A stretch of 64,000 nt of DNA from contig NC_135828.1 of NCBI RefSeq assembly GCF_964213995.1, positions 30,504,001 through 30,568,000 on the forward strand, read 5' to 3'. The DNA is from Mustelus asterias (lineage: Eukaryota). Shown piece after piece: positions 1,335 to 35,408 of this stretch (its first letter is position 1; every line of letters starts with the position of its first letter). The notes under the pieces were generated by a model, which saw only the letters and a program-made list of their open reading frames with translations, did not search any database and was not told where the DNA came from. A program made the translations under genes and the position numbers.

Positions 1335-3057
1335 GTGACGGTTAATACTTATAGGGGAATTTACCTTCCAATTTAATGGTTATTGGCAACATCAGTGCAC
1401 ATTGCTGAACTGATATTTCTATCGGTGAGATCAGTTAGAGCATTGATTACTCTTTTGCCAAATAATATAAGTTTCTATTATGGAAATCGACGCAGTTACG
1501 TTCTATAACAGTAACTTGCATTAATACACGAAAGCAAAATATATGCAAGACAAATGTCGGACAGTTTGGGAGTAGACATAATTATAATGTTCCTTGGGAG
1601 CCTATGTGGGCACAGTTACAACCTCAGTAAGTCGAGTCAGGAAGTCTCTCTATATTTTTTTATGGCTCCAGTGCATCTCTCGCGAAACAGGGTTAGTAGC
1701 GTGGAATATGGAAACCCGGTAAGTTTTTGTATTCAACGGAAATATGCATTGATACCAAAAGCATCGACACATCGCCATTAATGTCAAGATATGGAGACAC
1801 TGTGTGTCCAGACCTTACCGTCCTCTTGCGTGCCTCATGGCGATGATCAGCTGAGACCTTGTGAGATTTAACAAAAACTTTCTCCCTACCCTTAATGTGC
1901 AAGTTCAAATTTGATCTGTTTCTCATGTTCCTCTGTGGCCACTGGTTGGATTGTTCCGGTCTCCCAGTGGGCGAAGCGATTGTCTATTATAGAGAGGAAG
2001 ACCGCAGAAATGTGCTTTTACCAGAATGACACCAGCGAGGCCTACAAATTCTGGTATCGGCAACGCAAAAGAGCAGGATTGCAGCTCATAGTCCCTCTCA
2101 GACCACACCTGAAGGCAGCTTCACTGATATAATTCAAGTTCAGTAAGAAGTTTAACAACACCAGGTTAAAGTCCAACAGGTTTATTTGGTAGCAAAAGCC
2201 ACACAAGCTTTCGAGGCTCTGAGCCCCTTCTTCAGGTGAGTGGGAATTCTGTTCACAAACAGAACTTATAAAGACACAGACTCAATTTACATGAATAATG
2301 GTTGGAATGCGAATACTTACAACTAATCCAGTCTTTAAGAAACAAAACAATGGGAGTGGAGAGAGCATCAAGACAGGCTAAAAAGATGTGTATTGTCTCC
2401 AGACAAGACAGCCAGTGAAACTCTGCAGGTCCACGCAACTGTGGGAGTTACAAATAGTGTGACATCAACCCAATATCCCGGTTGAGGCCGTCCTTGTGTG
2501 TGCGGAACTTGGCTATCAGTTTCTGCTCAGCGACTCTGCGCTGTCGTGTGTCGCGAAGGCCGCCTTGGAGAACGCTTACCCGAATATCAGAGGCCGAATG
2601 CCCGTGACCGCTGAAGTGCTCCCCAACAGGAAGAGAACAGTCTTGCCTGGTGATTGTCGAGCGGTGTTCATTCATCCGTTGTCGCAGCGTCTGCATAGTT
2701 TCCCCAATGTACCATGCCTCGGGACATCCTTTCTTGCAGCGTATCAGGTAGACAACGTTGGCCGAGTTGCAAGAGTATGTACCGTGTACCTGGTGGATGG
2801 TGTTCTCACGTGAGATGATGGCATCTGTGTCGATGATCCGGCACGTCTTGCAGAGGTTGCTGTGGCAGGGTTGTGTGGTGTCTTGGTCACTGTTCTCCTG
2901 AAGGCTGGGTAGTTTGCTGCGGACAATGGTCTGTTTGAGGTTGTGCGGTTGTTTGAAGGCAAGAAGTGGGGGTGTGGGGATGGCCTTGGCGAGATGTTCG
3001 TCTTCATCAATGACATGTTGAAGGCTCCGGAGGAGATGCCGTAGCTACGGCATCTCC

Positions 3058-4813
3058 AATATAAAGAGGGGATCTTATTGAAGCATTGAACCAATATTTC
3101 TCTTCGGTGTTCACGCAAGGGGACATGAATATAGCTGAGGAGGACACTGGGTTGCAAGGGAGTAGAATAGACAGTATTACAGTTGATAAGGAGGATGTGC
3201 AGGATATTCTGGAGGGTCTGAAAATAGATAAATCCCCTGGTCCGGATGGGATTTATCCAAGGATTCTCTGGGAGGCAAGAGAAGTGATTGCAGAGCCTCT
3301 GGCTCTGATCTTCAGGTCGTCGTTGGCCTCTGGTATAGTACCAGAAGATTGGAGGTTAGCGAATGTTGTCCCATTGTTTAAGAAGGGGAACAGAGACTTC
3401 CCCGGGAATTATAGACCGGTGAGTCTCACTTCTGTTGTCGGCAAGATGTTGGAAAAAATTATAAGGGATAGGATTTATAGTTATTTGGAGAGTAATGAAT
3501 TGATAGGTGATAGTCAGCATGGTTTTGTGGCAGGTAGGTCGTGCCTTACTAACCTTATTGAGTTTTTTGAGAAAGTGACCAAGGAGGTGGATGGGGGCAA
3601 GGCAGTGGACGTGGTATATATGGATTTTAGTAAGGCGTTTGATAAGGTTCACCATGGTAGGCTTCTGCAGAAAATGCAGATGTATGGGATTGGGGGTGAT
3701 CTAGGAAATTGGATCAGGAATTGGCTAGCGGATAGGAAACAGAGGGTGGTGGTTGATAGTAAATATTCATCATGGAGTGCGGTTACAAGTGGTGTACCTC
3801 AGGGATCTGTTTTGGGGCCACTGCTGTTTGTAATATTTATTAATGATCTGGATGAGGGTATAGTTGGGTGGATTAGCAAATTTGCTGATGACACCAAAGT
3901 CGGTGGTGTGGTAGACAGTGAGGAAGGGTGTCGTAGTTTGCAGGAAGACTTAGACAGGTTGCAAAGTTGGGCCGAGAGGTGGCGGATGGAGTTTAATGCG
4001 GAGAAGTGTGAGGTAATTCACTTTGGTAGGAATAACAGATGTGTTGAGTATAGGGCTAACGGGAGGACTTTGAATAGTGTGGAGGAGCAGAGGGATCTAG
4101 GTGTATGTGTGCATAGATCCCTGAAAGTTGGGAATCAAGTAGATAAGGTTGTTAAGAAGGCATATGGTGTCTTGGCGTTTATTGGTAGGGGGATTGAATT
4201 TAGGAGTCGTAGCGTTATGTTGCAACTGTACACAACTCTGGTGCGGCCGCACTTGGAGTACTGTGTGCAGTTCTGGTCCCCACATTACAGGAAGGATGTG
4301 GAGGCTTTGGAAAGGGTGCAGAGGAGGTTTACCAGGATGTTGCCTGGTATGGAGGGGAGATCCTATGAGGAGAGGCTGAGGGATTTGGGATTGTTTTCGC
4401 TGGAAAGGCGGCGGCTAAGAGGGGATCTTATTGAAACATATAAGATGATTAGAGGTTTAGATAGGGTGGATAGTGATAGCCTTTTTCCTCTGATGGAGAA
4501 ATCCAGCACGAGGGGGCATGGCTTTAAATTGAGGGGGGGTAGTTATAGAACCGATGTCAGGGGTAGGTTCTTTACCCAGAGGGTGGTGAGGGATTGGAAT
4601 GCCCTGCCAGCATCAGTAGTAAATGCGCCTAGTTTGGGGGCGTTTAAGAGATCCGTAGATAGGTTCATGGACGAAAAGAAATTGGTTTAGGTTGGAGGGT
4701 CACAGTTTTTTTTTTTTTATTTATTTATTTTTTTTAACTGGTCGGTGCAACATCGTGGGCCGAAGGGCCTGTTCTGCGCTGTAATGTTCTATGTTCTATG
4801 TTCTATGTTCTAT
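3058..4813 (+). mobile_element. 5'-truncated CR1-type LINE nested in the Penelope element
   Basis: Uninterrupted RT ORF, 3' GGGCCGAAGGGCC stem-loop and (TTCTATG)n tail. Confidence 0.92.
3086..4690 (+). CDS. CR1 LINE ORF2 reverse transcriptase (5'-truncated, open)
   Basis: KSPGPDG, NYRPVSLTS, QHGF, DFSKAFD, GVPQGSVLGP, FADD motifs; 534 aa with no stops. Confidence 0.9.
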   Translation: MNQYFSSVFTQGDMNIAEEDTGLQGSRIDSITVDKEDVQDILEGLKIDKSPGPDGIYPRILWEAREVIAEPLALIFRSSLASGIVPEDWRLANVVPLFKKGNRDFPGNYRPVSLTSVVGKMLEKIIRDRIYSYLESNELIGDSQHGFVAGRSCLTNLIEFFEKVTKEVDGGKAVDVVYMDFSKAFDKVHHGRLLQKMQMYGIGGDLGNWIRNWLADRKQRVVVDSKYSSWSAVTSGVPQGSVLGPLLFVIFINDLDEGIVGWISKFADDTKVGGVVDSEEGCRSLQEDLDRLQSWAERWRMEFNAEKCEVIHFGRNNRCVEYRANGRTLNSVEEQRDLGVCVHRSLKVGNQVDKVVKKAYGVLAFIGRGIEFRSRSVMLQLYTTLVRPHLEYCVQFWSPHYRKDVEALERVQRRFTRMLPGMEGRSYEERLRDLGLFSLERRRLRGDLIETYKMIRGLDRVDSDSLFPLMEKSSTRGHGFKLRGGSYRTDVRGRFFTQRVVRDWNALPASVVNAPSLGAFKRSVDRFMDEKKLV

Positions 4814-4980
4814 GACTTTAACCTGGTGTTGTTAAACGTCTTACTGTGTTTACCCCAGTCCAACGCCGGCATCTCCACATCATAATTCAAGTTAGCAGAA
4901 CCGAGTTCATGGATTGCAGTCTGAAAATACAACGCATGGAGCCGACTGGCACGGCTGTTTATTAATGCCCTGTTAGTGAC

Positions 4981-5019
4981 GACAATGGCTTTAACAGTTG
5001 CCGGACTGGGTCAATAACA
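4981..5019 (+). promoter_or_regulatory. Defective 23-RSS of the TRBV pseudogene
   Basis: GACAATG (essential CAC mutated), 23-bp spacer, TCAATAACA. Confidence 0.75.
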
Positions 5020-5317
5020 CCTCTCCATTGTTAAATTTGTTCCCGGTTTTGGGACAACATTTAGTGGATCACTGAATCCCACAGCATTCCAAGACTGCCC
5101 GAGTAACGAATCAAACGCCAGGGCGATATTCACTACTTTGCAATCAGTGGAAGTTTGCAGTCATGGCGAACGAATTATTCTGTTTTTCCCAGTTCTCTTT
5201 TTCAAAGCTGCTACCAGTTTGATCTCGCTTCTTCTCTGCCCGCAACGGACTCCGTATGTATCTTTTAAAAATATATTTCCAAAACTCTTCTCCGAATTGC
5301 TCTTCAATCTGCTTCCC

Positions 5318-5729
5318 ATGATGTGGAGATGCCGGCGTTGGACTGGGGTAAACACAGTAAGTAATCCCACGACACCAGGTTAAAGTCCAACAGGTTTATT
5401 TGGTAGCAAAAGCCACTAGCTTTCGGAGTGCTGCTCCTTCATCAGGTGAGTGAGATTTCAGTTCACAAACAGGGCATATAAAGACACAAACTCAATTTAC
5501 AAAATAATGGCTGGAATGCGAGTCTTTACAGGTAATCAAGTCTTAAAGGTACAGACACTCTGAGTGGAGAGAGGGTTAAGCACAGGTTAAAGAGATGTGT
5601 ATTGTCTCCAGCCAGGACAGTTAGTGAGATTTTGCAAGCCCAGGCAAGTCGCGGGGGTTACAGATAGTGTGACATGAACCGAAGATCCCGGTTGAGGCCG
5701 TCCTCATGTGTGCAGAACGTGGCTAACTA
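5318..5729 (-). mobile_element. Penelope-like element 3' fragment (related subfamily)
   Basis: Homologous to 2141-2520 and includes the terminal tail. TSD CAATCTGCTTCC at 5305-5316 and 5730-5741. Confidence 0.88.
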
Positions 5730-5889
5730 CAATCTGCTTCCACCAGCCCTTCAGGAAATCTGCTCCAGATCTTAAATGGTCAATTATTTAAAGAGGAAAG
5801 GTATCTTCAGCCGCCGGTCTGTTGCTCTTTTATGGATCTACTTTAATATTATCCCCTGTTGTCAATGGATTCTGTTTCTAAGCCTTACT

Positions 5890-6756: not shown

Positions 6757-7164
6757 GTTAGCACCCAGCCTAGTATGACCCGTTGGGCCAATCTTAATCT
6801 CTTTTGACAATCTCGTTCTTGCTACTATAGGAATTATTGATTCAGTTAGAATGTTTCACAAATCTGTCGTTGCGTTAAGCTTAAGTTCTTCGGGTGGAAT
6901 ACCCGTTGTCTCATAGGCTGGAAAATAATTGCAGTTCCAGATTGCGAACGATACATGCAGCATTTTCTAAATGCAAAGTATTTGCTGATCTACTGTCAAA
7001 GAGCATGGAGGTGGGATTAATGAGAACGCTATTGTAAAAAGCTTGGACAGGCACAAACTGGCAAAGCGAGTGCAGTTTTCACCTTGAATTTGATGGAACT
7101 TCGGCTCTATTCTTACTTTAACATTTAATATTTGATCCTTTCTGTTCCTCATATTCCTCTACAG

Positions 7165-7466
7165 TTGGTTGCAGGAGCACTGTCGTCTCTCAGTGGCCGA
7201 CCCATTTGTCCCTTGAAAAGGAGAAGATTGCGGAGATGCACTGTTACCAGAACGATACCAGCGAGACCTACATGAACTGGTACCGTCAGAAGGTCGGAGC
7301 GGGTTTGCAACTGATAGTTGCCTCGGTTCTCGGCTCCAATGGCACGACTGAGGATGGTTTCTCAGAGAGGTTTCAAGCCACCAGACCCTCTGTTAAATCC
7401 TGCAGCCTGAAAATATTGAGCGTGGATCAGACCGATACTGCAGTTTATTACTGCGCTGCTAGTGGT
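7165..7466 (+). CDS. TRBV: T-cell receptor beta variable segment, V exon (intact)
   Basis: VSQWP..EMHCYQNDTSETYMNWYRQKVGAGLQLI..RF..SCSLKI..DTAVYYCAAS, with both canonical Cys and the Trp, followed directly by an RSS. Confidence 0.95.
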
Positions 7467-7505
7467 CACAGTGATCGAAAGGGGTGTAGGGCTGTATCAA
7501 AAACT
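7467..7505 (+). promoter_or_regulatory. 23-RSS of TRBV
   Basis: CACAGTG, 23-bp spacer, TCAAAAACT. Confidence 0.95.
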
Positions 7506-7799
7506 TCTTCATGACTTTGAGCTCTCGTATCGACGTTAGTTCGGACCCACAGGGGAACTAGTTCCACCAGGGGTAGGGCAGGGCGGCAGGCGGAGGAAAG
7601 GGGATGTGACCCTGTGCTCTTTGCAGGAACATAATCTACAATGGCGAACCACTTCCATGCCCCCCCATCCCCATTGCCACTCTGACACCCAACAGGCTCA
7701 TTGCTGTGGCAGTATATTACCCTTACCTGCATTTCCTAGCCCGGAGCGCTAGGTAGAGGATTTTCCAATGCGACTCACTTGAACAAAGACACACGAAAT

Positions 7800-29876: not shown

Positions 29877-30122
29877 TAAGAAGTTTAACAACACCAGGTT
29901 AAGGTCCAACAGGTTTATTTGGTAGCAAAAGCCACACAAGCTTTCGAGGCTCTGAGCCCCTTCTTCAGGTGAGTGGGAATTCCCACTCACCTGAAGAAGG
30001 GGCTCAGAGCCTCGAAAGCTTGTGTGGCTTTTGCTACCAAATAAACCTGTTGGACTTTAACCTGGTGTTGTTAAACTTCTTACTGTGTTTACCCCAGTCC
30101 AACGCCGGCATCTCCACATCAT
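29877..30122 (+). mobile_element. Short palindromic Penelope insertion (inverted terminal repeat plus 40-nt tail)
   Basis: 103-bp arms 29877-29979 and 29980-30082 with no spacer. TSD ATCTAACAGAA at 29866-29876 and 30123-30133. Confidence 0.92.
29983..30027 (+). ncRNA. Minimal type-I hammerhead ribozyme-like motif in the Penelope terminal repeat
   Basis: CUGAAGA-A-stem II (GGGGCU/AGCCUC)-GAAA-GCU-U-GUG. Other copies at 2199-2243(-), 5413-5450(-), 29932-29976(-), 32974-33018(-) and 34847-34891(+). Confidence 0.7.
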
Positions 30123-31939
30123 ATCTAACAGAAGACAGAGGGTGGTGGTGGATGGAAAATTTTCGGACTGGAAACCGGTTACCACCGGAGTGCCACAGGG
30201 ATCAGTGCTTGGTCCTCTATTATTTGTAATTTTTATAAATGACTTGGATGAGGGGGCTGAAGGGTGGATCAGTAAATTTGCTGATGACACCAAGATTTGT
30301 GGAGTAGTGGATGAGGTGGAGGGCTGTTGTAGGCTGCAAAGAGATATAGATAGGATGCAGAGCTGGGCTGAAAAATGGCAAATGGAGTTTAACCCTGACA
30401 AATGCGAGGTGATTCATTTTGGTAGGACAAATTTAAATGTGGATTACAGGGTCAAAGGTAGGGTTCTGAAGAATGTGGAGGAACAGAGAGATCTTGGGCT
30501 TCATATCCATAGATCTCTGAAGGTTGCCACTCAAGTGGATAGAGCCGTGAAGAAGGCCTATAGTGTGTTAGCGTTCACGAACAGGGGGTTTGAGTTTAAG
30601 AGCCGTGGGGTTATGCTGCAACTGTACAGGACCTTGGTGAGACCACATTTGGTATATTATGTGCAGTTCTGGTCACCTCACTATAGGAAGGATGTGGAGA
30701 CACTGGAAAGAGTGCAAAGGAGATTTACCAGGATGCTGCCTGGTTTGGAGGGTAGGCCTTATGAGGAAAGGTTGAGGGAACTTGGGCTTTTCTCTTTGGA
30801 GCGGAGGAGGTTGAGAGGAGACTTGATAGAGGTTTGCAACATGATGAGGGGGATAGATAGAGTGAACGTTCAAAGACTGTTTCCTCGGGTGAATGGAGTG
30901 GTAACTAGGGGGCATAACTATAGGGTTCATGGTGGCAGATATAGGAAGAGTGTCCGAGGTAGGTTTTTTTACTGAGAGAGTGGTCGGGGTGTGGAATGGA
31001 CTGCCTGCAGTGATAGTGGAGTCAGAAACTTTCTGAACATTTACGAAGCTATTGGATAGGCACATGGAGTACTTCGGGATGATAGGGAGGAAATAGCTTG
31101 ATCTGGGTTTCAGACAAAGCTCGGCACAACATCGTGGGCCGAAGGGCCTGTTCTGTGCTGTACTGTTCTATGTTCTATGTTCTAACAGTACAGCACAGGA
31201 AAGAGGCCCTTCGGCCCTCCAAGTCTGTGCCGCTCATTGGTCCAAAGAGACCATTCGTTTGTATCCCTCCCACATGCCCAGACTGCTCATGTGACTATCC
31301 AGGTAAGTCTTAAACGATGCCAGCGTGTCTGCCTCCACTACCCTACTTGGCAGGTCATTCCAAGCCCCCACCACTCTCTGTGTAAAAAACGTCCCTCTGA
31401 TATTTGAGTTATACCTCGCCCCACTCACCTTGAGCCCGTGACCCCTCGTGATCGTCACTTCCGACCGGGGAAAAAGCTTCCCACTGTTCACCCTATCTAT
31501 ACCCTTCATAATCTTGTACACCTCTATTAGATCTCCCCTCATTCTCCGTCTTTCCAGGGAGAACAACCCCAGTTTACCCAATCTCTCCTCATAGCTAAGA
31601 CCAGGCAACATCCTGGTAAACCTTCTCTGTACTCTCTCTAAAGCCTCCATGTCCTTCTGGTAGTGTGGCGACCAGAACTGGACGCAGTACTCCAAATGTA
31701 GTCCAACCAGCGTTCTATACAGCTGCAACATCAGACTCCAGCTTTTATACTCTATACCCCATCCTATAAAGGCAAGCATACCATATGCCTTCTTCACCAC
31801 CTTCTCCACCTGTGCTGCCATCTTCAAGGATTTGTGGGCTTGCACACCTAAGTCCCTCTGTGTTTCTCTTGATGGCTCTGCCATTAATTGTATAACTCCT
31901 CCCAGCATTAGTTATTCCAAAATGCATCACTTCACATTT

Positions 31940-32880: not shown

Positions 32881-34945
32881 GATGTGGAGATGCCGGCGTT
32901 GGACTGGGGTAAACACAGTAAGAAGTTTAACAACACCAGGTTAAAGTCCAACAGGTTTATTTGGTAGCAAAAGCCACACAAGCTTTCGGAGCTCCAAGCC
33001 CCTTCTTCAGGTGAGTGGGAATTCTGTTCACAAACAGGACATATAAAGACACAGACTCAATTTACATGCATAATGGTTGGAATGCGAATACGTGTAGCTA
33101 ATCAAGTCTTTAAGATACAAACAACATGAGTGGAGAGAGCATCAAGACAGGCTAAAAAGATGTGTATTGTCTCCAGACAGGACAGCCAGTGAGACTCTGC
33201 AGGTTCAGGCAGGCTGTGGGGATTACAAATAGTGTGACATGAACCCAATATCCCGGTTGAGGCCGTCCTCGTGTGTGCGGAACTTAGCTATCAGTTTCTG
33301 CTCAGCGACTGTGCGCCATCGTGTGGCGTGAAGGCCGCTTGGAGAATGCTTGCCCGAATATCAGAGGCCTCCACTCAGAGGCTTCTCTGAGTGGAGGCCT
33401 GTGACTAGTGGTGTGCCGCAGGGATTGGTGTTGGGTCCATTGTTGTTTGTCATCTGTATCAATGATCTGGATGATAATGTGGTAAATTGGATCTGCAAGT
33501 TTGCTGATGATACAAAGATTGGAGGTGTAGTGGACAGTGAGGAAGGTTTTCAAAGCTTGCAGAGGGATTTGGACCAACTAGAAAAATGGGCTGTAAAATG
33601 GCAAATGGAATTTAACGCAGACAAGTGTGAGATATTGCACTTTGGAAGGACAAACCAAAGAAGAACGTACAGGGTAAATGGTAGGACTCTGAAGAGTGCA
33701 GTTGAACAGAGGGATCTGCGAATACAGGTGCAGAATTCCCTAAAAGTGACGTCACAGGTGGATAGGGTCGTAAAGAGTGCCTTTGGTACATTGGCCTTTA
33801 TAAATCGGAGTATCGAGTATAAAAGTTGGAGTGTTATGGTAAGGTTACATAAGGCATTGGTGAGGCCGAATTTGGTGTATTGTGTACAGTTTTGGTCACC
33901 TAGTTACAGGAAGGATGTAAATAAGATTGAAAGAGTGCAGAGAAAGTTCACAAGGATGTTGCCGGGACTTGAGAAGCTGAGTGACAGAAAGAGATTGAAT
34001 AGGTTGGGACTTTATTCCCTGGAGCGTAGAAGATTGAGGGGAGATTTGATAGAGGTGTATAAGATTTTGATGGGTATAGATAGAGTGAATGCAAGCAGGC
34101 TTTTTCCGCTGAGGCTAGGGGAGAAAAAAAACCAGAGGGCATGGGTTAAGGGTGAAAGGAGAAAAGTTTAAAGGGAATATTAGGGGGGGCTTCTTCACGC
34201 AGAGAGTGGTGGGAGTGTGGAATGAGCTGCCGGATAAAGTGGTAAATGCGGGGTCACTTTTAACATTTAAGAAAAACTTGGACGGGTTCATGGATGAGAG
34301 GGGTGTGGAGGGATATGTTCCAAGTGCAGGTCAGTGGGACTAGGCATAAAATGGTTCGGCACAGACAAGAAGGGCCAAAAGGCCTGTTTCTGAGCTGTAA
34401 TTTTCTATGGTTCTATGGTTCTATGGAATGCCCGTGACCGCTGAAGTGCACCCGAACAGGAAGTTGGGGAGCACTTCAGCATTCACGGGCATTCGGACTC
34501 TGATACTCGGGTAAGAGTTCTCCAAGGCGGCCTTCACGACAGTCGACGGCGCAGAGTCGCTGAGCAGGAACTGAGAGCCAAGTTCCGCACACATGAGGAC
34601 GGCCTCAACCGGGATAATGGGTTCATGTCACACTATTTGTAATACCCACAGCCTGCCTGGGCCTGCAGAGTTTCACTGGCTGTCCTGTCTGGAGACAATA
34701 CACATCTTTTTAGCCTGTCTTGATGCTCTCTCCACTCATGTTGTTTGTATCTTAAAGACTTGATTAGCTATAAGTATTCGCATTCCAACCATTATTCATG
34801 TAAATTGAGTCTGTGTCTTTATATGCCCTGTTTGTGAACAGAATTCCCACTCACCTGAAGAAGGGGCTTGGAGCTCCGAAAGCTTGTGTGGCTTTTGCTA
34901 CCTAATTAACTTGTTGGACTTTAACCTGGTGTTGTGAAACTTCTT
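32881..34945. mobile_element. Penelope-like element, long inverted structure (tail at left, inversion point ~34463)
   Basis: Left arm 32881-33369 plus 34426-34463; right arm 34464-34945 is its reverse complement. TSD CCTGTGGCCAA at 32870-32880 and 34946-34956. Confidence 0.9.
33370..34425 (+). mobile_element. CR1 LINE 3' fragment nested in the Penelope arm
   Basis: RT ORF 33350-34171 (GVPQG, FADD) and a (TTCTATGG)n tail. Host TCAGAGGCC|GAATGCCCG rejoins. Confidence 0.9.
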
Positions 34946-35408
34946 CCTGTGGCCAAGCCAGTTCTCTACCCATCTAGCCACCTCTCCTTGTATCCCATGA
35001 GCCTTAACCTTCTTAACCAACCTGCCATGAGGGACTTTGTCAAATCCCTTACTGAAATCCATATAGGCGACATCTCGGTCACATCCCCTCTTCAGTTCTC
35101 TGGAATTATATAGAGATACATCAGTTTCTCAAACAAAATTATAACCACATACCTTATGCCTAAATGGACTAATATTAACCGACTAGGGTATAGGAGGCTG
35201 AATAGCCTAGTCCATTTGCTGATGTTTCTGTGACGTTTCATCTTCGGCTTATTAGCAGGATTGGAGGTAGAACGTTTTTTTTTTAATCACGAAATTTTAA
35301 ATACAGTATTGTTGAGGGTTGAAAGTGCTGGGGCCAAATTGATAATGCTAGTTGCAACAGGACTTCAATCCGTCTTATGAGGTTTCCTTACAAGCGTCTC
35401 ACACTGTG

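What the first reader, a model, noticed from the sequence alone, without database searches (positions are those of the whole stretch)
3032..4883. CR1 LINE inserted 13 bp from the apex of a Penelope palindrome, replacing most of one arm
Seen: a perfect 26-bp palindrome GGAGATGCCGTAG|CTACGGCATCTCC (3032-3057) marks the inversion point. The left arm is ~900 bp; of the right arm only 13 bp and the terminal 70 bp (4814-4883) remain, with the LINE between them and no LINE TSD. Inference: a spacer-less ~1.8-kb palindrome broke as a hairpin or cruciform and was patched by LINE cDNA (endonuclease-independent insertion), or only interrupted palindromes survive.
Basis: partly seen in the sequence, partly recalled or inferred. 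Interest (0 to 1): 0.7.

Follow-up and report, generated by a model that had tools for sequence, protein, structure and literature searches.

The report
LINE insertion collapsed a Penelope palindrome
One jumping gene (CR1) sits inside a mirror-image copy of another (Penelope) where about 820 bases of one mirror arm are likely lost, and the loss likely happened while an ordinary CR1 insertion was being repaired, since sister mirror copies without a CR1 there survive intact in the same genome.

Summary
Real. A Penelope inverted insertion (12-bp target duplication) holds a 906-bp left arm, a spacer-less 26-bp apex, 21 nt of filler, a 1.74-kb 5'-truncated young CR1 and a 70-bp right-arm end. That refutes 'only interrupted palindromes survive'. 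Break-first, endonuclease-independent patching is less likely: the CR1 tail is intact and joins a nucleotide used by 7 other CR1 insertions, 5 collinear. CR1s do not crowd the apex (median 399 bp from the arm's inner end, n=40, against 320 expected). But losses over 20 bp are commoner when the CR1 5' end faces the apex (17 of 57 against 3 of 37, p=0.019, post hoc). Best reading: normal target-primed insertion, with hairpin-guided trimming of the upstream end and templated end-joining. Inner junctions were not checked in reads. The scan earlier noted fold-back Penelopes on other DNA; this configuration did not come up in two look-ups.

The parts
2129..2140 (+). Left copy of the 12-bp Penelope target-site duplication
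   Evidence: Identical to 4882-4893; the empty site reads CTG-16-CAG (2124-2126 and 4896-4898)
2141..3046 (-). Penelope left arm (906 bp), 3' part of the element with the GIY-YIG region, no tail
   Evidence: 4 differences in 904 to L010, 5 to L330; Pfam GIY-YIG 23.5 bits, cut-off 22.6
3032..3057 (.). Spacer-less 26-bp palindrome, apex between 3044 and 3045; 3047-3057 is the 11-nt fold-back stub
   Evidence: native continuation in siblings; same apex in an intact 1.97-kb palindrome
3058..3078 (+). Junction filler: 6 nt unassigned, then 15 nt copied from CR1-internal 4417-4431, running into a TGAA microhomology with the CR1 5' end
   Evidence: 3064-3086 vs 4417-4439, 22 of 23
3079..4814 (+). 5'-truncated CR1-type LINE (RT region, 3' UTR, 4 x TTCTATG tail at 4787-4814; last G shared with Penelope)
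   Evidence: Pfam RVT_1 E=1e-36; 1-2 substitutions in about 1,714 bp to five siblings; 6,057 genomic matches to a marker at its 5' end
4814..4883 (+). Penelope right-arm end (70 bp) with the ~36-nt tail
   Evidence: 98.6% to sibling ends; 33-bp inverted overlap with the left arm
4882..4893 (+). Right copy of the Penelope target-site duplication (first 2 nt shared with the tail)
   Evidence: junction spanned by an X15 contig
1930..4990 (+). Host: antigen-receptor V segment, likely a pseudogene, split by the composite; in-frame stop at 4963-4965
   Evidence: 72-75% to paralogues at 7151-7510 and in L329; paralogue is Pfam V-set; stop shown

Best explanation
A young CR1 LINE likely inserted by ordinary endonuclease-primed reverse transcription 70 bp from the end of the right arm of a Penelope inverted repeat that was likely a spacer-less 1.8-kb palindrome, and the arm DNA between that nick and the apex was likely trimmed away while the CR1 5' end was being joined. 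Shown: the anatomy, the 12-bp Penelope duplication round both arms, the intact tail on a recurrent junction nucleotide, the filler copied from inside the CR1, and intact sister palindromes. Inferred: (1) the CR1 endonuclease nicked the bottom strand at 4814 and primed on the tail with 1 nt of microhomology; (2) resection of the upstream end exposed the top strand, which folded on the left arm and was clipped 13 nt past the tip, removing about 820 bp; (3) that 3' end copied 15-19 nt from the single-stranded CR1 cDNA 1.35 kb away, slipped to the cDNA end by TGAA microhomology and was sealed. Within this reading I put about two thirds on a symmetric precursor and one third on a natively short right arm with a smaller loss and a stub made by snap-back at the junction.
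For: Tail intact, as in classical insertion and unlike the endonuclease-independent criteria of PMC1920257 (passages). Same tail-to-Penelope nucleotide at 7 other loci from several CR1 subfamilies; 5 of the 7 have collinear Penelope upstream with a short duplication or blunt join. CR1 enters Penelope in both orientations (55 and 77 loci). Of 57 insertions with the 5' end facing the arm's inner end, 10 lost >20 bp, 5 join the opposite arm and 2 have no Penelope upstream; facing the terminus 3 of 37 (p=0.019). Loss in 15 of 39 inverted copies vs 0 of 16 simple ones (2 of 18 in the worst case, p=0.06). L098, L101, L109, L110 are small near-symmetric versions with an 18-38-bp stub and 24-46-bp loss. 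Precursor: L330, L334-L336. Filler from flank or LINE and long truncations are documented for L2/CR1-type LINEs (PMC4245944, PMC2666801); resection from a break beside a palindrome exposes hairpins (review PMC8701086).
Against: The pre-insertion allele was not seen, so the size of the loss is not measured. L119, a 2,060-bp 98.9% palindrome with a 4-nt loop, took a CR1 84 bp from its end with no loss, and window 32881-34951 took one 38 bp from its apex with no loss: hairpin trimming is not the rule. The 17/57 vs 3/37 contrast is post hoc, junction positions were set by eye, set D offers only about 55 bp of Penelope on the 5' side, and the inverted-vs-simple test is partly circular. An intact tail may be less diagnostic for CR1 than for L1, because CR1/L2 enzymes are thought to need their own 3' end (PMC4245944 introduction). 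Sequence alone cannot order nick and break.
Confidence: 0.64

Rival explanations
1. One reading: the palindrome broke at its tip as a hairpin or cruciform, one side was resected about 820 bp, and CR1 reverse transcriptase primed on the free end without its endonuclease.
For: No CR1 duplication, large loss, filler at the 5' junction, breakpoint 13 bp from a likely native apex; centre deletions are the known fate of perfect palindromes in mice (PMC8701086 passages); L1 cDNA is found at fold-back junctions in human cells (PMC11702581 passages).
Against: Tail intact and 3' end complete; junction on a nucleotide shared by 8 of 55 insertions in a ~30-bp stretch; 4 of 4 other spacer-less long palindromes are unbroken; no pile-up of CR1 at apices.
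Confidence: 0.12
2. Two steps: CR1 inserted normally with a short duplication (as in L119); later the remaining 830-bp-arm palindrome broke at its centre and a one-sided deletion ran from the apex into the CR1, sealed by templated end-joining.
For: L119 is such an intermediate; the CR1 5' end is not a recurrent truncation point (first 100 of 6,057 matches all read on natively).
Against: Both elements are very young (no private substitution in 906, 68 and 1,622 covered positions), leaving little time for two rare events; older spacer-less palindromes have not collapsed; a template 1.35 kb from the junction fits single-stranded cDNA better than duplex DNA (inference).
Confidence: 0.12
3. Co-insertion: during Penelope integration the right-hand cDNA stopped or jumped after 70 nt onto a CR1 RNA, the left cDNA snapped back 11 nt, and the two were joined; nothing was deleted.
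For: Both families are of the youngest age class; right arms of 35-62 bp occur natively; capture of foreign sequence between Penelope repeats is reported (PMC3846280 passages); an earlier scan note (e1-9591105, not checked here) says Penelope joints take up templated patches.
Against: The same 3' junction is used by plain insertions with duplications; 0 of 57 loci showed a CR1 plus Penelope end bracketed by a Penelope duplication without a left arm (L096 and L108 inspected, no shared duplication seen); no near-identical CR1 within 10 kb upstream or 59 kb downstream to serve as DNA template (best long match 79%).
Confidence: 0.09
4. Assembly artefact at a palindrome.
For: No listed contig spans the inner junctions.
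Against: Both outer junctions are in run contigs; a 12-bp duplication, tail asymmetry and split V exon are coherent; like structures with their own duplications recur.
Confidence: 0.03

Closest known systems
L2/CR1-type LINE insertion with long target-site truncation and 5' extra nucleotides (PMC4245944 part 1 of 5 and passages; PMC2666801 passages)
   Same: Intact 3' tail with microhomology, 5' truncation, no duplication, loss of target DNA, filler copied from flank or LINE; most CR1 insertions here have 2-8-bp duplications, near the 3-5-bp peak reported.
   Different: Here the target is a palindrome, the loss appears to stop at its tip, and losses are biased to the apex-facing side; in those papers long truncations are tied to Ku70 loss, not to target structure.
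Inverted insertion of an endonuclease-bearing Penelope-like element with tail and duplication (PMC3846280, PMC8557442 passages; PMC11167929 parts 1-2 of 4)
   Same: Inverted 5'-truncated copy, 30-40-nt tail on one end only, ~12-bp duplication, palindromic junction, C-terminal GIY-YIG.
   Different: Arms here are coding-region long (0.9-1 kb) and spacer-less; one arm is replaced by a LINE.
Endonuclease-independent (non-classical) L1 insertion (PMC1920257 passages)
   Same: No duplication, target deletion, extra nucleotides.
   Different: That class requires 3' truncation, no tail and an atypical target; this CR1 has a full 3' end on a recurrent target.
Centre-break revision of perfect palindromes in mouse (as reviewed in PMC8701086, passages)
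   Same: One-sided loss ending near the symmetry axis.
   Different: Sister palindromes here persist unrevised to 6.6% arm divergence; the loss is tied to a LINE junction.

Membership tests
Penelope-like element (EN+) | C-terminal GIY-YIG endonuclease | tested here: met
   Pfam PF01541 just above cut-off in window 2610-3044 and in longer sibling L236
Penelope-like element (EN+) | Reverse transcriptase upstream of the endonuclease | tested here: met
   RVT_1 E=6.5e-10 directly upstream of the GIY-YIG frame in L236, one stop between; absent from the truncated window copy
Penelope-like element (EN+) | Inverted truncated copy, 30-40-nt tail on one end, target duplication | tested here: met
   Tail only on the right end; 12-bp duplication
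Penelope-like element (EN+) | Hammerhead ribozyme in the terminal repeat | tested here: inconclusive
   No Rfam match at E<=0.1 in 2000-5800; no custom model built
Penelope-like element (EN+) | Clade by RT phylogeny (Poseidon, Neptune, Nematis) | not tested
   No tree built
CR1-type LINE | ORF2 with AP-type endonuclease followed by RT | tested here: met
   Sibling L042 (98.8% identical): Exo_endo_phos E=3e-18 and RVT_1 E=5e-36 in one 964-aa frame; window copy has RT only
CR1-type LINE | 3' end in a short tandem repeat, short duplications | tested here: met
   4 x TTCTATG at 4787-4814; mostly 2-8-bp duplications at other insertions
CR1-type LINE | CR1 rather than L2 clade by phylogeny | not tested
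Endonuclease-independent LINE insertion (criteria of PMC1920257) | No target duplication | tested here: met
Endonuclease-independent LINE insertion (criteria of PMC1920257) | 3' truncation and no tail | tested here: not met
   Full 3' UTR and tail, as in siblings
Endonuclease-independent LINE insertion (criteria of PMC1920257) | Target unlike the endonuclease's usual sites | tested here: not met
   Same nucleotide used at 7 other loci, 5 collinear; the CR1 cleavage consensus itself was not derived
[quoted passage not shown] | Loss measured against the pre-insertion site | not testable with these tools
   No Penelope-only allele seen; about 820 bp is inferred from sister L330

The most novel reading that the evidence does not exclude
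Kilobase-scale spacer-less Penelope palindromes are long-lived in this germ line, and LINE insertion is a main trigger that collapses them: the single-stranded end exposed during target-primed insertion folds back and is clipped at the tip, so target structure, not only host repair genotype, sets the size of LINE target-site deletions. The genome would then hold a natural series (intact, CR1 with duplication, CR1 with apex-bounded loss) in which to test this.
Probability: 0.3. Interest if true: 0.55.

Novelty: new variant of a known kind. Interest (0 to 1): 0.34.

Why it matters
The locus is a dead double insertion in a likely V pseudogene and has no evident function. It matters as a record of repair: if the apex-facing bias holds genome-wide, palindromic targets steer LINE 5' joining into deletions, a link that three literature searches did not return (1, 0 and 5 papers listed, none on this by title or abstract). 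Separately, intact perfect 1.7-2-kb palindromes in a vertebrate assembly bear on how stable such DNA is outside mammals.

Tried and rejected
Shared chimeric family (one Penelope-CR1 donor re-copied): rejected, the 8 loci with the same 3' junction carry different CR1 subfamilies, lengths and flanks. Recurrent CR1 truncation point: two top siblings end at the same base, but the first 100 of 6,057 marker matches all read on natively, so this was BLAST ranking. Sister apex as proof of inheritance: weakened, a control 4-mer site has 3 such fold-backs, so a sister is expected by chance; what it shows is that such apices belong to full palindromes. CR1 copied from neighbouring DNA: no close copy nearby. 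Dating the two elements apart: no private substitution in either. Deeper anchors (about 430 and 570 bp from the end) gave 2 and 2 loci, not fetched. Pre-insertion allele: not seen among the listed joints of 4 runs (594 joints not shown; X1 and X2 have no depth on the unique flanks, so they say nothing about this locus). Rfam: nothing. PMC2912911 passages: no use. PDB search of the V paralogue returned antibody and T-cell-receptor chains and did not fix the locus type.

Full report
Observation. Three details were missed. A 12-bp duplication (2129-2140, 4882-4893) brackets the whole composite, so both arms belong to one Penelope integration, which split a V segment. The central 4-mer is native Penelope sequence, so the fold-back adds 11 nt. 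The collinear LINE starts at 3079; the 21 nt before it are filler, 15 of them copied from 1.35 kb inside the same LINE. The genome is 3.68 Gb; a shark is my inference from recalled repeat types, not from a call.

Identity and age. The arm carries a GIY-YIG match and a longer sibling has RT upstream. The LINE has RT, and a 98.8% identical sibling has an AP-type endonuclease and RT in one frame. Nearest siblings differ by 4 of 904 (Penelope) and 1-2 of about 1,714 (LINE) substitutions; neither has a private change. Both are of the youngest class and cannot be dated apart.

Was there a 1.8-kb palindrome? At first this looked unnecessary. In 80 stretches of 10 kb not chosen for content (79 at round coordinates, 1 beside the window), 14 inverted elements had an arm of 300 bp or more; by eye 2 were symmetric within 15 bp and 5 had a partner arm of 160 bp or less. 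Pairs of 626/57, 323/35 and 297/62 have no LINE. CR1 5' junctions also make fold-backs: 2 of 94 had arms of 19-20 bp, one of them in a simple Penelope with a normal duplication, and the window's second case has 16 bp. But a search for the apex alone found one other locus, L330, an uninterrupted palindrome with 981-bp perfect arms, its own duplication and 99.5% identity to this arm. A control 4-mer site gave 3 loci, all full symmetric 1.7-1.9-kb palindromes with arms 97.3, 97.3 and 93.4% alike and no LINE inside. Spacer-less apices of this depth are thus, in 4 of 4 other cases, native tips of full palindromes. A rough rate comparison puts the odds of a native apex here at about 2 to 1 (inference). 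The same result refutes the idea that only interrupted palindromes survive.

How did the CR1 get in? Its 3' end is complete with four tail repeats. The same tail-to-Penelope nucleotide occurs at 8 loci; of the 7 others, 5 have collinear Penelope upstream, 1 lost 46 bp and 1 could not be placed. CR1 tails join the Penelope end region at 55 loci in sense and 77 in antisense, at a few microhomology-rich positions. The endonuclease-independent class of PMC1920257 (passages) needs 3' truncation, no tail and an atypical target; two of its tested features fail here. Lack of a duplication, long truncations and filler are known for L2/CR1-type LINEs (PMC4245944 part 1 of 5 and passages; PMC2666801 passages).

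I collected CR1-in-Penelope junctions by tail-plus-anchor patterns. Set A: 44 of 55 loci fetched (left out: this locus, one without a Penelope-like junction, nine on small contigs); 3 set aside because the tail joins an antisense piece; 41 scored. Set B: 16 of 16. Set C: 27 of 31 held, 3 had no CR1, 24 used for distance, 17 had the 5' end in view. Set D: 20 of 77. Distance from insertion to the arm's inner end at the deep anchors (B and C, n=40, read by hand, some censored): median 399 bp against 320 for 40 unselected arms; 5 of 40 against 2 of 40 within 50 bp, p=0.43. There is no pile-up at the apex. What differs is the 5' junction (positions set by eye, then aligned). Facing the inner end (A and B, 57): 40 duplication, blunt or loss up to 20 bp; 10 loss over 20 bp; 5 joined to the opposite arm; 2 unplaced. 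Facing the terminus (C and D, 37): 34 and 3. Fisher p=0.019 counting unplaced as loss. Loss was in 15 of 39 inverted and 0 of 16 simple copies (2 of 18 if the unplaced are simple, p=0.06). Outer duplications of 8-14 bp were found by script in 12 of 15 loss loci checked. The contrast is post hoc and modest.

Mechanism. The simplest single event: a CR1 nick at a usual site in the right arm, reverse transcription from the tail, resection of the upstream end, folding of the exposed strand on the left arm, clipping just past the tip, a short copy from the single-stranded cDNA, and microhomology joining. The nick, fold and clip are inferred. Against generality: L119 (2,060 bp, 98.9%, 4-nt loop) took a CR1 84 bp from its end, and window 32881-34951 one 38 bp from its apex, both without loss. 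Break-first patching (0.12), later centre-break deletion (0.12) and co-insertion (0.09) remain open because no pre-CR1 allele was seen. Run X15 contigs span the outer junctions only; the inner junctions rest on the assembly.

Known and new. Inverted Penelope insertions with tail and palindromic junction are described (PMC3846280, PMC8557442 passages; PMC11167929 parts 1-2 of 4). Centre deletion of palindromes and hairpin exposure by resection are reviewed in PMC8701086 (passages); L1 cDNA at fold-back junctions in PMC11702581 (passages). Searches joining these themes listed 1, 0 and 5 papers, none on this by title or abstract; subscription journals are not covered, and no supplements were read. 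Verdict: real, mostly explained by known parts, with a possibly new bias; interest 0.34.

Noticed in passing
L330 (G000:C7:127497645-127500668), locus 497-2500: Uninterrupted Penelope palindrome with 981-bp perfect arms and no spacer, 12-bp duplication, a ~60-bp internal duplication mirrored in both arms.
   Followed up: partly
L334, L335, L336: Three more spacer-less 1.7-1.9-kb palindromes at one 4-mer apex, arms 97.3, 97.3 and 93.4% alike; L334 has a 65-bp duplication beside the apex in one arm. With 38 such 4-mer sites in 910 bp and 1-3 per site at two sites, tens of these may exist genome-wide (estimate).
   Followed up: partly
window 32881-34951: Near-symmetric Penelope palindrome (arms about 530/524 bp, 12-bp duplication) with an older CR1 38 bp from the apex, no arm loss, 16-bp fold-back of the CR1's own 5' end.
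   Followed up: partly
window 29877-30123: Small spacer-less Penelope palindrome (76-bp perfect arms, apex at a native 6-mer) inside an older CR1, 12-bp duplication.
   Followed up: partly
window 5318-5731: Simple, older Penelope copy (82% to the left arm) with an 11-bp duplication.
   Followed up: no
window 2124-2126 and 4896-4898: The empty Penelope site reads CTG-16-CAG, the symmetric target that earlier scan notes describe.
   Followed up: partly
window 7161-7505, 1930-4990; L329 6717-7061: Tandem antigen-receptor V segments; the one at 7161-7466 is open and followed by a heptamer, 23-bp spacer and nonamer-like signal (T-cell-receptor type is recalled, not tested).
   Followed up: partly
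L087, L102, L169, L232, L241, L243, L249: CR1 5' junctions carry fold-backs (9-20-bp arms) or short tandem copies of flank or LINE end.
   Followed up: partly
L004 (locus about 1154-1513 on the matched strand): A CR1 internal fragment ends directly in tail repeats without its 3' UTR, inside a Penelope end.
   Followed up: no
L115 1287-2162, L247 2593-3082 (matched strand): Near full-length CR1 copies begin with arrays of 50-51-bp tandem repeats.
   Followed up: no
L244, L253: SINE-like sequence (recalled type) at or next to the junction between Penelope arms.
   Followed up: no
runs X1-X5: Runs labelled as another organism or a hot-springs metagenome share about half the words; X1 and X2 when laid hold near-identical repeat pieces but no unique flank, suggesting carry-over DNA.
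   Followed up: no
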